A stretch of 64,000 nt of DNA. Source: Coriobacteriales bacterium (GTDB taxonomy: Bacteria > Actinomycetota > Coriobacteriia > Coriobacteriales > UBA8131). Shown here piece after piece: positions 5,672 to 45,893 of this stretch. The DNA is taken from NCBI GenBank assembly GCA_031263105.1, contig JAISGJ010000173.1, positions 940 to 64,939 of the forward strand. The letters run 5' to 3'. The first letter of the stretch is position 1. Every line of letters starts with the position of its first letter. Below the pieces are notes generated by a model. It saw only the letters and a list, made by a program, of their open reading frames with translations, ran no database searches and was not told the origin of the DNA. The translations under genes and the position numbers were made by a program.

Positions 5672-6721
5672 TCATGCAGGGGCTTCGGCGAGTCCCTTGA
5701 GCTGTCCGCAGGCTCCGCCGATGTCCATGCCGCGCGAGCGTCGGATGGAACACTCGACGCCGGCGGCCTGTAGTTGGGACGCGATGGCGGCGCAGCGTTC
5801 GGGAGGGCTGGAGGGGCCGATGCCTTCCGACAGGGGAGGACTGGGCGGGTTGAGGGGTATCAAGTTCACGTGACAGAGCATCCCACGCGCAAAACCGATA
5901 AGAGCCTCGACCTCGGCAGGGGTGTCGTTGACTTGGGAGACGAGCGTGACCTCGAGGGAGGGGCGCCGTCGGGTTCGCTCGCCATAGGAGGCCAGAGCCT
6001 CGCGAAGCGCCGCAAGCGGCTGCTGTGCCAAGGCGGGCATGAGGGCGTCACGGGTGGCCTGGACCGCCGAGTGCAGGGATACCGCGAGCGTGAACTGGTC
6101 CGGCTCATGGGAAAAGCGCCCAAGCGGCGTCAGCAGCCCGCAGGTCGAGACCGTGAGGTGCCGTGCACCGATCCCTAGGCCGTCTGGGGAGTTCATGATG
6201 CGCAGTGCGGCGAGGGTTGCATCGTAGTTTGCGAAGGGCTCGCCTTCTCCCATTGCGACCGCGTTCGTGACACGCTGCCCCAGATCCCTGGAGACGGCTA
6301 TGAGCTGGTCGACCATCTCGCCTGGGGCAAGCGAGCGGACCAGGCCGCTCCTTCCCGTCGAGCAGAACGTGCAGCCCATGGCGCAGCCCACCTGCGTCGA
6401 GAAGCAGACGGTGAGACGCTTGGCGTGAGGGATGGCAACGGTCTCTATCCGCGAGCCGTCAGCGAGCCCGAACAGGTATTTCCGCGTGCCGTCGGAGGAC
6501 GTCTGCCGCTTGAGAAGCCCAAGGGGCGCAAGGGGCTCATCAGCCTTCAGCCGTTCCCTCAGCGACGCAGGCAGGCTGCTCATCTCCTCGTAGCTTTGGG
6601 CGCCGTGGGCATACAGCCACTGAAGGAGCTGGGTCGCTCGGAACGAGGGCTCTCCCCACGAGTGCAAAAGGGCTTGCAGCCCTGGTATGTCGTAACGCTT
6701 GATGCCGGATGCAGCAGGCAT
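5672..6721 (-). CDS. rlmN: 23S rRNA/tRNA (adenine-C2)-methyltransferase RlmN (radical SAM)
   Basis: FRATQLLQWLY N-domain, the radical-SAM cluster motif CAMGCTFCSTG and a C-terminal GGACGQL. Start set to ATG 6721 (MPAASGIKRY). The 47 codons upstream in the track ORF are translated repeat element. Confidence 0.9.
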   Translation of the reverse strand: MPAASGIKRYDIPGLQALLHSWGEPSFRATQLLQWLYAHGAQSYEEMSSLPASLRERLKADEPLAPLGLLKRQTSSDGTRKYLFGLADGSRIETVAIPHAKRLTVCFSTQVGCAMGCTFCSTGRSGLVRSLAPGEMVDQLIAVSRDLGQRVTNAVAMGEGEPFANYDATLAALRIMNSPDGLGIGARHLTVSTCGLLTPLGRFSHEPDQFTLAVSLHSAVQATRDALMPALAQQPLAALREALASYGERTRRRPSLEVTLVSQVNDTPAEVEALIGFARGMLCHVNLIPLNPPSPPLSEGIGPSSPPERCAAIASQLQAAGVECSIRRSRGMDIGGACGQLKGLAEAPA

Positions 6722-9687: not shown

Positions 9688-9828
9688 CGCTGCCACCCTT
9701 CTCTAAAATCTACTCTGGCCCCTCAGTCTATCAGCAGTCTATCAGAGCCACGTCCCCGCTCGCAGTTTGTTCTGGCATCGTTACCATGCGTGTTGCCGTG
9801 ACGTTACTGGCCACACCTTCCACGGACA

Positions 9829-10143
9829 CCCCACTGTCATCCCGAGCCCCCCACTGTCATCCCGAGCCCCCCACTGTCATCCCGAGCGAAGCCGAGGGAT
9901 CCTTGGGTCCGAGCGCCCGGAAAACGCACCGCGTTTTCAGCGAGGACGGGCCGACAGGCCCACGGAACGCAAAGCAGCCGACCGCAGGTCGAGGCACCCT
10001 CTAGCCGCAGTCGACCGCTTACGCGGTCGAGGATCCCTCGGCAGGCTCGGGATGACAGTGGGGGCCGGGATGGCAGTGGGGGCCGGGATGACAGTGGGGG
10101 CTCGGGGCGGCGGCGGGGGGGGCTCGGGATGACAGTGGAGGGG
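9829..10143. repeat. full copy of the dispersed inverted-repeat element, with 3-4 fold reiterated termini and one 60-bp hairpin module
   Basis: Left end has CCCCACTGTCATCCCGAGC three times; right end has GGGATGRCAGTGGGGGC three to four times. The interior matches the other copies. Sits 16 bp downstream of the hisG stop. Confidence 0.85.
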
Positions 10144-10158
10144 TGAACAGCAATCCGG

Positions 10159-10797
10159 TCACTCCAGCTGCTCAAGCCGTGACGCGAGTTCGCGCACACG
10201 GGGGTCGATGCGCACGCTTGCGGGGTTGCCCACGAAGCGGGCGGTGGAGGCAAGCACCTCGTCGACGATGACGAGGTTGTTCTCGCGCAGGGTCGTCCCC
10301 GTCGCGGTGATGTCGACGATGCGCTGCGCCATGCCGCACAGCGGGGCGAGCTCGATGTTGCCGTGCATCTTGACGAGCTCGACCTGCACGCCGAGGGCGC
10401 GATAGTACGCCGCCGTTATGCGGGGGTACTTGGTCGCGACGCGAAGGACGCCGAGCGTCCGGTAGGCCTCCTCCGTCTCCCCTGCCGCCTGCGCCGGCTC
10501 CGCCACGACGAAGCGGCAGGCGCCGAAGCCCAGATCGGACAGCTCGACCACTTCGAGCGCCGCCTCGACGAGGGAGTCCTTGCCGCAGATGGCGCAGTCG
10601 ACGCCCCCGTAGCTGACGAAGATCGGCACGTCGGTGGGGCGCACGATGTAGAACTCGGCCTCCTCGTTGGCAATGACGAGCTGCCTGCCGGGGTCGTCCA
10701 GGCCACGGATGTCGAGTCCCGCCCTGCCCAGCAGCGCGACGCTCTCCTTGTAAAGCGCGCCTTTGGGCACCGCTATCTTGAGGGGAGGGGCGCTCAT
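10159..10797 (-). CDS. hisG: ATP phosphoribosyltransferase, short form (HisG-S)
   Basis: 212 aa: MSAPPLKIAVPKGALY...IVRPTDVPIFVSYGGVDCAICGKD...DITATGTTLRENNL. The ATG overlaps the hisZ stop (ATGA). The upstream part of the track ORF is a shadow frame of hisZ. Confidence 0.9.
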   Translation of the reverse strand: MSAPPLKIAVPKGALYKESVALLGRAGLDIRGLDDPGRQLVIANEEAEFYIVRPTDVPIFVSYGGVDCAICGKDSLVEAALEVVELSDLGFGACRFVVAEPAQAAGETEEAYRTLGVLRVATKYPRITAAYYRALGVQVELVKMHGNIELAPLCGMAQRIVDITATGTTLRENNLVIVDEVLASTARFVGNPASVRIDPRVRELASRLEQLE

Positions 10798-12194: not shown

Positions 12195-12439
12195 CCCCAC
12201 TGTCATTCCGAGCGCAGCGAAGGACCTTCGCTGCGCTCAGGATAAACTCCGCCGAGGAATCTTCGGGTTCGAGCGCCCGGAAAACAGTCCGGCGGACTGT
12301 TTTCAGCGAGAACGGGCCGACAGGCCCACGGGGCGCGAAGCAGCCGACCGCAGGTCGAAGCGCCTCCCGGCCGCAGTCGGGCGCTTCGCGCCCGAGGATT
12401 CCTCGGCTCCGCTCCGCTGCGCTCGGAATGACAGCGGAG
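12195..12439. repeat. full copy of the dispersed inverted-repeat element (one variant hairpin module)
   Basis: Bounded by CCCCACTGTCATTCCGAGC ... GCTCGGAATGACAGCGGAG. The interior is collinear with the copy at 9829-10143. Confidence 0.85.
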
Positions 12440-12441
12440 CA

Positions 12442-12458
12442 GGGGGGGGGGGGGGGGG
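12442..12458. repeat. G17 homopolymer tract
   Basis: 17 consecutive G, abutting the repeat element and 24 bp downstream of the HD-GYP gene stop. Confidence 0.9.
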
Positions 12459-12481
12459 TGCGACCAGTAACCGGCGCTTCC

Positions 12482-35711: not shown

Positions 35712-35878
35712 CCGTTACTGTTCACTCCCCCTATTGTCATTCCGAGCCTCGCGAGGAATCTTCGGCTGCGAAGCAGCCGAGCGCGGGCCGAAGCGCTTTC
35801 TGGCCGCAGTCGACCGCTTGCGCGGTCGAGGATCCCTCGGCAGGCTCGGGATGACAATAGGGGGAGTGAACAGTAACG
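35712..35878. repeat. copy of the dispersed inverted-repeat element with perfect 36-bp termini and AAAG flanking duplication
   Basis: CCGTTACTGTTCACTCCCCCTATTGTCATTCCGAGC ... GCTCGGGATGACAATAGGGGGAGTGAACAGTAACGG. AAAG is present on both flanks. Lies inside the 3' end of the ribF ORF. Confidence 0.85.
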
Positions 35879-42251: not shown

Positions 42252-43598
42252 TCAGGCCCCGCTCTCCTCGGGCGCAGGCGCCTCGGGGGGGACATCGGAG
42301 GGCGCCTCGGAGGCACGCGCCTCCTCGGCCTCCTGAGAGGCACGGACGGCGTCCGAGAGCTCCGTGACGTCGTCGGTCGTCTCCCCCAGCGTGGCGTTCT
42401 CGTGCAGGCGGCAGAAACGTGAGTGGGGCTGCGCATGGTTGCGGCAACGGATGCCGTCGGGCGAGACGTACTCGCAGCGCCCGCCCTCGGGCTCGGACTC
42501 GTGCTCGTCGTCATCGAAGAGCGTCGTCACCGCCGACGGCATATCGCCCATGAGCGACGAGCTCTTGATGTCGATATGCCAGCCGGTCAGGCGGGCTGCC
42601 AGGCGGGCGTTCTGCCCCTCCTTGCCGATGGCAAGCGAGAGCTGGTCGTCCGGCACGATGACGGTGGCATAGTGCGTCCCCTCGTCCACGATGACGTTGT
42701 TCACCTTGGCGGGCGAGAGCGCGTTCGCCACGTACACGCTCGGGTTGTCGTCGAACTGTATGACGTCGACGCGCTCGTTGCGCAGCTCCTCGACCACCAT
42801 GCGCACGCGCGAGCCCTTGGGGCCCACGCAGGCGCCGACAGGGTCGAGGTTGCCCTCGCGGGAGGACACCGCGATCTTGGAGCGCGCCCCCGCCTCGCGG
42901 GCGATGGACTTGATCTCGACGATGCCGTCGTATATCTCCGGCACCTCTATCTCGAAGAGCCGGCGGATGAGGTCGGGATGGGTGCGGCTGACGACGATCG
43001 ACGGACGGGTGTTCTCGTTGCGGCTGCCGGGGTCGACGAAGTTGGGGTCGCGGACCTCGATGATGAGCGACTTGAGGCGCTGGTTGTGACGGTAATGTTC
43101 GTTGGCGGGCTTCTCGTTGCGCTCGCCTCCGTAGCGCTTCACGTCGAAGTGCGGCAGCTCGGCCTCCACGCCGTCGCGTATCTTGATGATGGTGAAGTCC
43201 GGCGTGGACTGCAGGACCGTGCCGGTGACGAGCTCGCCCTTGCGGTCCGAGTACTCGGTGAAGATGGCCTGGCGCCCGGCATCGCGCACGATGGACATGA
43301 TGACGTTCTTGGCGTTCTGCGCGGCGATGCGGCTCACGTCGCGCGGCGTGACGTCGCGCTCCTCGAAGCTCGCGTACTCGCCCGTCTCCTCGTCGGGCTC
43401 CCCGACGGGCACCAGCTCGTAGACGTAGATGCTGCCCGTCTCGCGGTTGATGGTGACGCGCGCGTCCCACTCGAGCTTGAGGATGCCCTCGTAGCTCCTC
43501 GCAAGCGACTGCTCCAGACGTTCGAGCAGATAGATCTCGTCGATGTTCTTCTCCGCTGCCAAAGCCTCCAGGGCTGCCATTAACTCAGACGACATCAT
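42252..43598 (-). CDS. nusA: transcription termination/antitermination factor NusA with a ~100-aa Cys/His-containing acidic C-terminal extension
   Basis: N-domain, S1 and KH1/KH2 ([47 protein letters not shown]). ATG 43598 is preceded by GGAAGGA. Confidence 0.93.
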
Positions 43599-44091
43599 CG
43601 GTTCCTTCCTGTGACCGGCTCTTCCTGTTGTCAGGGCCGACGCGCCCCAACAGGTGCGCCTTCCTGATGCTCTCATACGGTATGGCCCGCTCCTCGCCGT
43701 CGACAAGGAGCAGGACGGCGGCCTCGGTGACGCCGACGAGGGTGCCCGTCCAGCTGCGGCGTCCCTCGAGGGGGCCGGTCGCAAGCCGCGCCTCCTCGCC
43801 GACGAAGCGCGCGAAATGCGCGGGCGTGCGCAACGGGCGGTCGATGCCGGGCGAGGAGACCTCCAAGGTGTAGGCCCCGAAGTACGGCTCGTTGGCCTCG
43901 ACGGCCGCGTCGACCCAAGGGTTCGCCCCGGCAAGCTCGTCGATGCCGCAGCCGCCCTCGCGGTCGAGGAGGACGCGGACGATGCGCGAGGAACCCGCCG
44001 AGGCAAGCTCCACGTCGACCAGCTCGAAGCCGTTGTCGGCCGCCGCCGCATCCAGCGCCGCTATGAGCCTCTGGCGCTTCTCGCCCTTCAC
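43585..44091 (-). CDS. rimP: ribosome maturation factor RimP
   Basis: GFELVDVEL...VRVLLD...YTLEVSSPGIDRPLR. GTG 44091 is preceded by GAAGGAG 4 nt upstream. The longer track ORF is rejected. Confidence 0.85.
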   Translation of the reverse strand: MKGEKRQRLIAALDAAAADNGFELVDVELASAGSSRIVRVLLDREGGCGIDELAGANPWVDAAVEANEPYFGAYTLEVSSPGIDRPLRTPAHFARFVGEEARLATGPLEGRRSWTGTLVGVTEAAVLLLVDGEERAIPYESIRKAHLLGRVGPDNRKSRSQEGTDDVV

Positions 44092-44326
44092 ACCGCTCCT
44101 TCTTCCTCGGGGAGGCACCGGGCCACCTAACAAAAGAAAGCGGGACAAAGCCCACTTCCTCACCGACCCGATCATCGTTGAAAACCGCAAGAAAACCTGC
44201 ACCTGTTCCCATGGAAGAGGCGCAGAGGCATTTATACCATAAAAGCCCTGACCTGAACAGCCCCGCCGTCGACACGGGCGCACAGGGCGCGCGGGGAGCG
44301 CGGCGTGAGGCATTGCCGGCCCCGCA

Positions 44327-44784
44327 CCCCACTGTCATTCCGAGCCCTTCGGCTGCGCTCAGGGCAAACTCCGGGGCGCAAGCCCCGCAGCCGAGGAATC
44401 CTTGGGTCCGAGCGCCCGGAAAACGCACCGCGTTCTCAGCGAGGACGGGCCGACAGGCCCACGGAACACGAGCGCCCGGAAAACGCACCGCGTTCTCAGC
44501 GAGGACGGGCCGACAGGCCCACGGAACCCGAGCGCCCGGAAAACGCACCGCGTTCTCAGCGAGGACGGGCCGACAGGCCCACGGGACCCGAGCGCCCGGA
44601 AAACGCACCGCGTTCTCAGCGAGGACGGGCCGACAGGCCCACGGAACGCGAAGCAGCCAGCCATAGGTTGAGGGATCCTCCAACCTATGGCTGGCTGCTC
44701 TGCAGCCAGAGATTCCTCGGCTGCGGGGCTTGCGCCCCGGAGTTTACCCTGAGCGCAGCCGAAGGGCTCGGAATGACAGTGTGG
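44327..44784. repeat. largest copy (458 bp) of the dispersed inverted-repeat element
   Basis: Bounded by CCCCACTGTCATTCCGAGC ... GCTCGGAATGACAGTGTGG. Contains the 4 x 60-bp array and a near-perfect central palindrome around GGATCC. Lies 27 bp downstream of the focA stop. Confidence 0.85.
44410..44649. repeat. 4 x 60-bp perfect-phase tandem array of the hairpin module
   Basis: Unit GAGCGCCCGGAAAACGCACCGCGTTCTCAGCGAGGACGGGCCGACAGGCCCACGGAACNC starts at 44410, 44470, 44530 and 44590. Units differ only in their last few nt. Confidence 0.95.
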
Positions 44785-44810
44785 ACGGCGGCCCTGTGCG
44801 GCGGGCGCCC

Positions 44811-45677
44811 CTACTTCTCCGCCTTGGGCTTGTGGAAGGCGATCCAGTACAGGACGCCGACGAGGATGATGCCGCCGATCATGTTGCCGACGGTCACCAT
44901 GCCGAGGTTGTAGGCTATGGCGCCGATGTCGATCTTGTCGGCGGCCTCCAAGGCCTTCTCCCCCACCGCGCTGCCCGAGAGCTTGAGCACGTAGCCCATC
45001 GGGAGGAAGAACATGTTGGCCACGCTGTGCTCCGCCCCTGCGGCCACGAACGCGGTGATCGGGAAGAGGATCGCGAAGAACTTGTCTACGAACGTGCGGC
45101 CCGCAAAGGACATCCACACGGCGAGGCAGACGAGGAAGTTGCAGAGGATCGCCTTGAACAGCAGGGTGAGCGGCGGAATGGTCGCCTTCATCGCCGCCAG
45201 GTTTATGAAGGCGTCGCCCACCGCCCCGGGCGTGGGGCCCATGGCGCCGGTGTTCGCCAGGAACACGACCGCGACCGCGATGAGCGAGCCTATCAGGTTG
45301 GTGACCCAGATGATCACCAGGTTCTTGATATAGGAGCCCCACGGGACCTTGCCGCTCAGGACCGCAGCGATTATGAGGTTGTTGCCCGTGAACAGCTCCG
45401 CCCCCGCCAGCAGCACCAGAATGAGGCCGATGCAGAACCCCAGGCCTCCCAGCAGGCGCTGGGCGATAAAGGGCATGTTGGCCGAGTCCCCCAGGACCAG
45501 TCCGAGCATCATCCCGCCCATGCCGATGAATATGCCCGCAAAGATGCCTAAGGGAATGGCCCGTATCATCGGCATGTTCGCCTTGGCGACGCCGATGGCC
45601 TCGAGCTTCTGCTCGGTCTCTGCGGGCACCAGCACGTCCGGCTTGATGCTTGCAACCGTCTTGTCATCCATACTCAT
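44811..45677 (-). CDS. focA: formate/nitrite transporter family channel (FocA-like)
   Basis: Six-TM FNT signature including LLAGAELFTGNNL and GAEHSVANMF. ATG 45677 is preceded by GGAGGA. Adjacent to the hydrogenlyase genes. Confidence 0.88.
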   Translation of the reverse strand: MSMDDKTVASIKPDVLVPAETEQKLEAIGVAKANMPMIRAIPLGIFAGIFIGMGGMMLGLVLGDSANMPFIAQRLLGGLGFCIGLILVLLAGAELFTGNNLIIAAVLSGKVPWGSYIKNLVIIWVTNLIGSLIAVAVVFLANTGAMGPTPGAVGDAFINLAAMKATIPPLTLLFKAILCNFLVCLAVWMSFAGRTFVDKFFAILFPITAFVAAGAEHSVANMFFLPMGYVLKLSGSAVGEKALEAADKIDIGAIAYNLGMVTVGNMIGGIILVGVLYWIAFHKPKAEK

Positions 45678-45757: not shown

Positions 45758-45893
45758 CCCCCACTGTCATTCCGAGCCCTGCCGAGGAATCTTCGACTGC
45801 GGAGCAGCCGACCGCAGGCCGAGGCACCTTCCGGCCGCAGTCGACCGCTGACGCGGTCGAGGATCCCTCGGCAGGCTCGGGATGACAGTGGGG
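45758..45893. repeat. short copy of the dispersed inverted-repeat element
   Basis: Bounded by CCCCCACTGTCATTCCGAGC ... GCTCGGGATGACAGTGGGG. Lies 43 bp downstream of the hycI stop. Confidence 0.85.

What the first reader, a model, noticed from the sequence alone, without database searches (positions are those of the whole stretch)
44410..44649. 60-bp hairpin module amplified 4x in perfect phase, with compensatory stem variation in another copy
The module GAGCGCCCGGAAAACGCACCGCGTTYTCAGCGAGGACGGGCCGACAGGCCCACGG occurs once at 9911-9970 and four times head-to-tail at 44410-44649. It contains two hairpins: GAAAACGC/GCGTTTTC and GGGCC/GGCCC. The copy at 12271-12334 keeps the flanks but replaces the first hairpin by a longer, different one (GAAAACAGTCC-GGC-GGACTGTTTTC). 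Pairing is therefore conserved while the sequence changes, which argues for selection on structure. The four units differ only in their last few nt, which implies very recent amplification or ongoing gene conversion.
Basis: seen in the sequence. Interest (0 to 1): 0.6.

Follow-up and report, generated by a model that had tools for sequence, protein, structure and literature searches.

The report
Tiny GG-flanked hairpin module, amplified fourfold
The 60-base repeat is one copy, amplified to four, of a roughly 65-base non-coding DNA module with three conserved helices that sits as an optional insert inside larger palindromic repeats and recurs in unrelated gut, rumen and even marine bacteria, so it looks like an undescribed very small mobile element, not a feature peculiar to this genome.

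Summary
TRF finds 4.1 units of 60 bp at 44408-44651, a single copy lies at 9911-9965, and a long-hairpin copy lies at 12271-12334. The array sits inside a 476-nt palindrome (88-nt arms) between focA and rimP-nusA.

The unit is a discrete module: GG | GTYC-GAGCGCCCGG-hairpin 1-CAGCGA-GRAC-hairpin 2 (GGG..CCC)-NNGG |.

- **Distribution.** A pattern scan and a covariance model found it in about 20 rumen and gut Clostridia MAGs and in several Coriobacteriia. More distant copies lie inside an IS5 transposase gene of Rhodobacterales.
- **Covariation.** It is strong: 98% of cells paired, 12 of 19 pairs changed on both sides, 0 of 500 shuffles as high. A third helix (GUYC/GRAC) covaries too.
- **Insertion.** Filled and empty sites with identical flanks differ by exactly the module. 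It always follows GG and ends in GG, has no terminal inverted repeats, and also nests inside itself.
- **Strand.** I saw no orientation bias towards genes, and G-U pairs are almost absent. Rfam gives no match.

Best reading (0.55): a BOX-boxB-like or REPIN-like miniature mobile DNA hairpin module, amplified here by tandem duplication. RNA function and pure recombination remain as rivals.

The parts
44318..44405 (.). Left arm of the host palindrome. It starts with the family terminus CCCCACTGTCATTCCGAGC.
   Evidence: 88-nt inverted repeat, 91% complementary to 44706-44793. The same termini occur in six other elements of the window.
44402..44464 (+). Module unit 1, with an intact outer helix P1 (GUCC/GGAC)
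   Evidence: Covariance model R1, 70.3 bits. The minimum-free-energy fold gives P1, an inner CGC/GCG helix, hairpin 1 and hairpin 2.
44410..44649 (+). Four head-to-tail 60-bp units. Units 2-4 lack a proper P1 5' strand (ACAC, ACCC, ACCC).
   Evidence: R1 scores fall to 46, 43 and 57 bits for the inner units.
44652..44699 (.). Inner host hairpin with 24-nt arms
   Evidence: repeat I2, 92% complementary
44706..44793 (.). Right arm of the host palindrome
   Evidence: The whole 44311-44800 stretch folds as single-stranded DNA at -197.5 kcal/mol, z = -18.
9903..9965 (+). Single module with a short, perfect hairpin 1, inside host element 9829-10143
   Evidence: R1 75.2 bits; sequence
12263..12331 (+). 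Single module with the long hairpin 1 (canonical form), inside host element 12195-12439
   Evidence: R1 91.4 bits, the best hit in the window; sequence
35712..35878 (+). Host element without the module (empty site: GAATCTTCGG|CTGCGAAGCAGCC)
   Evidence: Sequence; aligned with filled copies
45758..45893 (+). Host element without the module (empty site)
   Evidence: Sequence; alignment
44811..45677 (-). focA (formate/nitrite transporter). Its stop codon lies 18 nt from the right arm.
   Evidence: PF01226, E = 6.8e-67; homologues
43585..44130 (-). rimP, followed by nusA (42252-43640, -). These are the next genes downstream on the minus strand.
   Evidence: RimP_N and DUF150_C; NusA_N and KH_5

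Best explanation
**What it is.** The 60-bp unit is a copy of a discrete non-coding module of about 63-69 nt. After a GG it reads GTYC, GAGCGCCCGG, hairpin 1 (G-AAAAC-variable 2-5 bp-triloop), CAGCGA, GRAC, hairpin 2 (GGG...CCC), NNGG. GTYC pairs with GRAC, forming helix P1.

**How it behaves (shown).**
- It is an optional passenger inside larger palindromic intergenic repeats, much as boxB sits between boxA and boxC in pneumococcal BOX elements.
- It occurs in at least ten unrelated sequence contexts in different phyla.
- It has sharp ends, always after GG and ending in GG.
- It has no terminal inverted repeats.
- It nests inside itself.

**Mechanism (inferred).** It behaves as a very small non-autonomous mobile DNA element. 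It probably moves as folded single-stranded DNA recognised by a trans-acting enzyme that I could not identify. Candidates are an IS607-type serine transposase (GG target, no inverted repeats, no duplication), a Y1/RAYT-type enzyme, or a DUF559/Vsr-like nuclease.

**The array (inferred).** At 44410-44649 one inserted copy was amplified to four. The first tandem duplication probably joined the host's 3' flank (AACG|CGAAGC) to the module's start (GTC|CGAGCG) through CGA microhomology. Unequal exchange or slippage then extended it.

**Possible side effect (inferred).** When transcribed on the minus strand between focA and rimP-nusA, the whole 476-nt palindrome would fold. It may protect or insulate RNA ends.
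For: - **Discrete unit.**
  - In L083 two adjacent host copies have identical flanks and differ by exactly 65 nt.
  - Filled and empty pairs also exist in a second host family (L049).
  - They exist in the window's own host family: el9 and el12 against el35 and el45.
  - They exist in an IS5 transposase ORF, where the intact Celeribacter gene compares with four interrupted Rhodobacterales copies.
- **GG at both junctions.** Read.
- **Self-nesting** at CAG|CGA, with complementary outer P1 strands: CAUC/GAUG in L052 and CAGC/GCUG in L022.
- **Wide spread.** About 20 Clostridia or Christensenellales MAGs, Eggerthellaceae, Coriobacteriaceae, and termite and rumen metagenomes. Alphaproteobacterial copies score 46-48 bits.
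- **Multicopy.** Many hits lie at contig ends. The module's k-mer depth is about 7,000, against about 25 for the flanks in the termite run.
- **Structure kept by compensatory change**.
- **No orientation bias to genes** and almost no wobble pairs.
- **Precedents.**
  - REPINs show common compensatory changes and tandem clusters that include flanks (PMC3116915).
  - BOX elements have a variable number of tandem boxB modules that fold independently and are shared between different terminal modules (PMC3049150).
  - IS607 inserts at GG without inverted repeats or target duplication (PMC6188088).
Against: - No transposase was found next to any copy. Motif scans for serine recombinase and Y1 in all module loci gave only wrong-frame noise.
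- At 63-69 nt the module is far shorter than the roughly 40-60 bp per end that IS1535 needs.
- No orthologous site could be compared between strains, because synteny downstream of focA is not conserved. Insertion rather than precise deletion is therefore inferred from the sharp common ends, not observed.
- The invariance of GAGCGCCCGG and CAGCGAG among most copies is partly imposed by my search pattern.
- Rumen metatranscriptome assemblies contain the module, so an RNA role is not excluded.
- The MAG taxonomy labels were taken from the record titles and not re-tested.
Confidence: 0.55

Rival explanations
1. The module is a functional structured RNA: a cis-acting stabiliser or processing signal, a protein-binding motif, or a small ribozyme. 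Its helices are kept by selection on the transcript.
For: - Three helices covary while the junction sequences stay nearly invariant, which is the usual signature of a functional RNA.
- Hairpin 2 loops are mostly GNNA on the strand as written.
- The module is present in contigs of many rumen metatranscriptome runs.
- The minimum-free-energy fold reproduces the model.
Against: - There is no orientation bias relative to flanking genes: 13 opposite/opposite against 12 same/same. In the window the copies are antisense to all neighbouring genes, while the L096 copy is sense to focA.
- There are 4 wobble cells against 94 double changes. A-C and G-T mismatches are about equally frequent, by inspection.
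- Single-unit fold z-scores are only -1.1 to -3.0.
- No Rfam family matches, even at E <= 10.
- It inserts inside a transposase ORF and inside itself.
- RNA depth is modest, and the contigs carry no strand information.
Confidence: 0.17
2. Nothing is mobile. The module is a building block shuffled among repeats by homologous or illegitimate recombination and gene conversion (BIME-like mosaicism). Its perfect stems result from quasi-palindrome correction by intramolecular template switching, not from selection.
For: - Sub-parts occur in other combinations. Hairpin 1 occurs alone in L092 and in Phyllobacterium. A hairpin-1-type stem occupies the hairpin 2 position in L001. A further insert sits in the hairpin 2 loop.
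- Wobble intermediates are nearly absent.
- Template-switch correction of imperfect inverted repeats is an established mutational mechanism (own knowledge).
Against: - The same sharp ends and GG junctions recur in at least ten unrelated contexts, including a protein-coding gene with no repeat nearby to recombine with.
- P1 strands stay complementary even when separated by more than 100 nt in nested copies.
- The junction sequences are conserved across phyla, which needs either transfer or selection.
Confidence: 0.18
3. The fourfold array is an assembly artefact, that is, a mis-joined or expanded repeat in a short-read metagenome assembly.
For: - The window comes from a termite-gut metagenome, and the module is extremely abundant there.
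- The junction unitigs have 5-7 times the local depth, so they also occur elsewhere.
- A metagenome scan for tandem junctions found no other array.
Against: - The three internal junctions are all different (AACAC, AACCC, GACCC), and each is backed by exact unitigs. If all three belong to this locus, at least four units are needed.
- Reads of 150 nt would span two junctions and so fix the order.
- Tandem clusters are normal for BOX and REPIN families.
Confidence: 0.1

Closest known systems
BOX elements of Streptococcus pneumoniae and S. suis (boxA-boxB(n)-boxC; PMC3049150)
   Same: - A composite intergenic repeat with mutually complementary terminal modules.
- An internal module that folds on its own and is present 0, 1 or several times in tandem (0, 1 and 4 in this window).
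- The same internal module is found between different terminal modules, as in S. suis.
- It creates spurious open reading frames (period 60 = 20 codons).
   Different: - I saw no sequence similarity by eye, and did not test it formally.
- The module here crosses phyla.
- It has three covarying helices with near-invariant junctions.
- It nests inside itself and inserts into coding sequence.
- BOX has terminal inverted repeats resembling those of ISSpn2.
REP/REPIN elements with RAYT transposases (PMC3116915)
   Same: - Miniature hairpin-forming mobile DNA.
- Compensatory changes in the stem are common.
- Tandem clusters of near-identical units include flanking sequence.
- Elements insert into or next to one another.
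   Different: - There is no GTAG-type REP head.
- The module is not a symmetric doublet.
- No RAYT gene was seen in any locus. The own genome could not be searched.
Small dispersed repeats SDR1-8 of Nostocaceae (Elhai et al. 2008, Genome Res 18:1484). It is cited in PMC3116915; the paper is not held, so its features are from my own knowledge.
   Same: - Very small elements without inverted repeats or coding capacity.
- They insert into other repeats and into each other.
- They lie near tandem heptamer arrays. Heptamer arrays also flank module sites in L052 and L068.
   Different: - SDRs are 21-27 nt and cyanobacterial. This module is 63-69 nt with a branched three-helix fold.
- Only its 24-nt hairpin 1 is of SDR size, and that hairpin does occur alone.
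IS607-family serine transposons (PMC6188088)
   Same: GG at both element junctions and at the target; no terminal inverted repeats; no target duplication.
   Different: - IS607 ends need several direct-repeat motifs over about 40-60 bp each, and the element encodes TnpA.
- The module is shorter than one such end.
- No TnpA was found nearby.
- The link is a lead only.

Membership tests
BOX-type composite repeat | Terminal modules complementary to each other, forming a long stem | tested here: met
   88-nt arms, 91% complementary; whole-element fold z = -18
BOX-type composite repeat | Internal module in a variable tandem copy number that folds independently | tested here: met
   0 copies (35712, 45758), 1 copy (9903, 12263), 4 copies (44410); independent fold
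BOX-type composite repeat | Sequence homology to pneumococcal boxA, boxB or boxC | not tested
   No BOX reference sequence was compared, so I claim likeness of architecture, not membership.
REP/REPIN-RAYT | REP head with a conserved tetranucleotide, and symmetric REP doublets | tested here: not met
   The module is asymmetric and its two hairpins are unrelated in sequence.
REP/REPIN-RAYT | A cognate RAYT (Y1) gene flanked by the repeats in the same genome | not testable with these tools
The motif scan of the fetched loci found none.
Classical MITE (DDE transposase-derived) | Terminal inverted repeats and a target-site duplication of fixed length | tested here: not met
   The 5' end GTTCGAGCGCCCGG and the reverse complement of the 3' end share no inverted repeat. 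Only GG recurs at both junctions.
IS607-family derivative | GG at the element termini and at the target, with no inverted repeats and no duplication | tested here: met
   Junctions; the definition is from PMC6188088.
IS607-family derivative | Subterminal direct-repeat TnpA binding motifs, and a TnpA gene in the genome | tested here: inconclusive
   Only a weak AGCG..CGG direct repeat precedes each hairpin. No serine recombinase was found in the loci, and the genome could not be searched.
Known structured RNA families (Rfam 15, including small ribozymes) | A match to a curated covariance model | tested here: not met
   No hit in the window at gathering score. None covers the module in 18 loci. 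None at E <= 10 on 9780-10170.
Integron attC site | Order RYYYAAC ... GTTRRRY with recombination at G|TT | tested here: not met
   The module reads GTTC ... GAAC on either strand, which is the opposite order. GTTCGAG also breaks the RRR rule (by inspection).

The most novel reading that the evidence does not exclude
The module, together with its 24-nt hairpin 1 and the insert found in the hairpin 2 loop, belongs to a pan-bacterial class of ultra-small (about 25-90 nt) structured mobile units. These units insert at GG within or beside hairpins, nest recursively, and cross phyla: Clostridia, Coriobacteriia and Alphaproteobacteria. They would be moved by a still unidentified mechanism: a widespread host-encoded or cassette-encoded nuclease such as DUF559, or an RNA-level activity of the three-helix fold itself. 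The multi-copy IS5 elements of Rhodobacter that carry the insert inside their transposase ORF would then hint that the insert is tolerated or removed.
Probability: 0.15. Interest if true: 0.9.

Novelty: new variant of a known kind. Interest (0 to 1): 0.58.

Why it matters
- **Annotation.** Small interspersed repeats are among the least understood parts of bacterial genomes. They break metagenome assemblies and create false ORFs; this array alone yields several ORFs of 160-330 aa.
- **Mechanism.** This module has sharply defined ends, a three-helix fold kept by compensatory change, and near-invariant junctions. It is present in distant phyla and in at least four unrelated host repeats. That gives a tractable handle on how such mini-elements move. 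A covariance model now exists to census it, and candidate enzymes can be tested by co-occurrence.
- **Scale.** If it is mobile, it is among the smallest branched mobile elements described.
- **Practical value.** If it is not mobile, it is still a useful marker and a warning for annotating gut, rumen and termite MAGs.

Tried and rejected
- **Exact-protein look-ups of FocA.** They failed for three start choices.
- **Orthologous locus comparison.** The closest FocA relatives (93-88% identity) have different downstream genes, so unit number cannot be compared between strains.
- **Rfam.** Nothing at gathering score or at E <= 10.
- **Viral contigs.** Only two chance hits in coding sequence. The phage collection gave no match.
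- **Metagenome scan for tandem junctions** (GGCCCN{4,14}GAGCGCCCGGAAAAC). Of 53 loci nearly all were chance hits, there were no arrays, and only 4 true single copies turned up.
- **Search for a parent IS with separated module halves.** None found.
- **Motif scans for serine recombinase and Y1 transposase.** Only wrong-frame noise.
- **Simple promoter and terminator scan of 43900-45000.** None found, so the element is not a canonical intrinsic terminator.
- **Literature search by sequence strings.** Nothing relevant.
- **Ideas rejected on inspection:**
  - Kink-turn or tandem G-A register of the junction: the minimum-free-energy fold and the Rhodobacter variant favour a CGC/GCG inner helix.
  - tRNA T-arm: the TTC is paired in P1.
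  - attC: wrong order of core sites.
  - IS200/IS605 ends: the two hairpins are unrelated.
  - Miniature group II intron or translational bypass in the IS5 gene: no matching take-off and landing codons, and the size is implausible.

Full report
**Observation**

No shuffle gave a match.
- TRF gives period 60, 4.1 copies and 97% matches at 44408-44651.
- The four units differ in two columns only, positions 56 and 59 of the unit.
- The copy at 12271 keeps the flanks and has a longer first hairpin.
- The array lies in the centre of a larger palindrome. It has 88-nt arms at 44318-44405 and 44706-44793, and a hairpin with 24-nt arms at 44652-44699. The whole folds at -197.5 kcal/mol as single-stranded DNA, z = -18.
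- Similar mosaic elements lie at about 6750, 9829, 12195, 13728, 35712 and 45758. Those at 35712 and 45758 lack the module.

**Setting**

- The element lies between focA (44811-45677, minus strand) and rimP-nusA (minus strand), downstream of hycI.
- The closest FocA proteins come from uncultured Coriobacteriales.
- The only sequencing runs holding the stretch are termite-gut metagenomes.
- Nearly all genes from 9 kb to 56 kb are on the minus strand, while all six module copies are on the plus strand.

**The module elsewhere**

- I scanned one genome per species with GAGCGCCCGGN{10,40}CAGCGAGRACGG.
- About 50 of these are true copies. Most are in rumen and gut Clostridia or Christensenellales MAGs. 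Others are in Eggerthellaceae (RGIG2436, UBA3686) and Coriobacteriaceae SIG39.
- The rest are chance matches inside genes.
- The common form has the long hairpin, like the 12271 copy.
- Many hits lie at contig ends, as expected for a multicopy repeat.

**Structure**

- By inspection the module reads: GG, GTYC, GAGCGCCCGG, hairpin 1, CAGCGA, GRAC, hairpin 2 (GGG..CCC), NNGG.
- GTYC pairs with GRAC to form helix P1. This helix covaries:
  - GUUC/GAAC and GUCC/GGAC in the common forms;
  - CACC/GGUG in L042;
  - CAUC/GAUG in L052;
  - CAGC/GCUG in L022;
  - AUUC/GAAU in L103;
  - AUUCU/AGAAU in L117.
- On 27 sequences, 98.0% of cells pair, 8 pairs change on both sides, and 0 of 500 shuffles reach this.
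- On 54 distinct copies aligned by model R1, 98.2% of cells pair, 12 of 19 pairs change on both sides, and there are 94 double-change cells against 4 wobble cells. Slid controls give 38-57% paired. This alignment is fitted to the model, and the junction strings are partly fixed by my pattern.
- Free-energy folding of single units gives the same helices plus an inner CGC/GCG helix. In the Rhodobacter copies that inner helix reads AGGGC/GCCCU (by inspection).

**A discrete insert**

- In L083 two adjacent host repeats have identical flanks and differ by exactly 65 nt.
- A second, unrelated host palindrome (L049, L086) occurs filled and empty side by side.
- The window's own host family occurs filled (el9, el12, el44) and empty (el35, el45).
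- In all cases the insert follows GG and ends in GG, and it has no terminal inverted repeats.
- The module also nests in itself at CAG|CGA. It nests up to three deep in L042, and the outer P1 strands remain complementary.
- The loop of hairpin 2 can carry yet another insert.
- Hairpin 1 occurs alone in L092 and in a Phyllobacterium plasmid.

**Alphaproteobacteria**

- A plasmid search found more distant copies, which score 46-48 bits with R1.
- In Rhodobacter sp. CZR27, R. capsulatus, Sagittula and Roseivivax, a 61-63-nt copy lies after GG inside an IS5-family transposase ORF. The Celeribacter homologue is intact at that point.
- The first hairpin covaries among these copies too.
- The CZR27 copy carries a second, larger insert further on, again after GG.

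**DNA or RNA?**

- Orientation relative to flanking genes is random in the Clostridia loci, by my crude gene calls: 13 opposite/opposite, 12 same/same, 13 mixed.
- A relative of the window carries a solo copy downstream of focA in the sense orientation. The window's copies are antisense.
- Wobble pairs are almost absent.
- Rfam has no match.
- Rumen metatranscriptome assemblies do contain the module, at modest depth and without strand information.
- I therefore favour a DNA-level element but cannot exclude an RNA role.

**The array**

- The inter-unit junctions read AAC-N-CGAGCG, and the 3' host flank reads AACG-CGAAGC. The first duplication therefore probably used CGA microhomology (inference).
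- Units 2-4 lack the P1 5' strand. Two of the three junctions carry a C that restores one P1 pair, which is weak evidence of anything.
- The units share C at 44435, a minority variant in the metagenome (about 17% of depth).
- Exact unitigs support each junction, but at 5-7 times single-copy depth. The junctions thus exist elsewhere, and the count of four remains unverified.
- No other array was found in the metagenome collection.

**Comparison with known elements**

- The architecture matches BOX elements: variable tandem boxB, independent folding, and shared internal modules.
- The compensatory changes and tandem clusters match REPINs.
- The GG junctions without inverted repeats match IS607. 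However, the module is too short for IS607 ends, and no transposase was found.
- DUF559 genes flanked by the Clostridial host palindromes (L053, L084) link that host repeat, not necessarily the module, to a nuclease.

Noticed in passing
L053 6036-6800 and L084 3744-4272: A DUF559 (Vsr-like) gene (PF04480, E about 1e-29) is bracketed by full palindromic repeats of the Clostridial 'type A' host family (GACCTCATCCGTC...GGGGAAGGC). The downstream repeat and a half-repeat further upstream (5870-5990) carry the module. In L084 the module lies 26 nt after the DUF559 stop codon.
   Followed up: partly
L155 1490-1557 and 1751-1841 (Rhodobacter sp. CZR27 plasmid); L153, L157, L158: An IS5-family transposase ORF is interrupted after GG by a 61-63-nt module, a length of 3n+1 in Sagittula and Roseivivax. 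In CZR27 it is interrupted again by an insert of about 91 nt. The interrupted region occurs at 8 places in that plasmid, and an inverted second copy lies in L155. It is unclear whether these IS copies are dead or tolerate the insert.
   Followed up: partly
L065, L079, L078, L038, L075 (loop of hairpin 2): A further conserved insert (CGTCCGTGCGCGATGGGACCCAATGCG.CAGCATTGGGCGCGCGCGTTTG) sits in the loop of hairpin 2, which makes a third level of nesting.
   Followed up: no
L052 4871-5034; L068 7151-7183 and 7588-7659; also seen by eye in L039, L063, L065, L070: Tandem heptamer arrays (GTTCCTA, TTCCCCA, TAGGGAG) lie directly beside module-bearing repeats. This recalls the heptamer arrays that host small dispersed repeats in Nostoc.
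   Followed up: partly
window 9829-9887 and 10044-10142: The 20-nt terminal motif CCCCACTGTCATCCCGAGCC of the host element is triplicated in tandem at the left end, and repeated three to four times in inverted orientation at the right end.
   Followed up: no
window 12434-12459 and 10107-10121: Long G runs (about 19 G at 12440-12458) directly abut the right ends of two host elements.
   Followed up: no
L096 4993-5070: A relative with 88% identical FocA carries a solo module (GGGCGCCCGG variant) downstream of focA. It has no palindromic host and lies on the sense strand.
   Followed up: partly
L001 6440-6570: Downstream of focA in the 93% relative lies a different palindrome with termini GTCATTGCGAGCG...CGCTCGCAATGAC. 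These resemble the window family's GTCATTCCGAGC...GCTCGGAATGAC, which suggests a wider superfamily of such termini.
   Followed up: no
window 44178-44666 (+), 43673-44683 (-), 44305-44913 (+), 44359-45342 (-): Because 60 is 20 codons, the array is open in several frames and produces spurious ORFs of 160-330 aa with 20-residue repeats. This is an annotation hazard.
   Followed up: no
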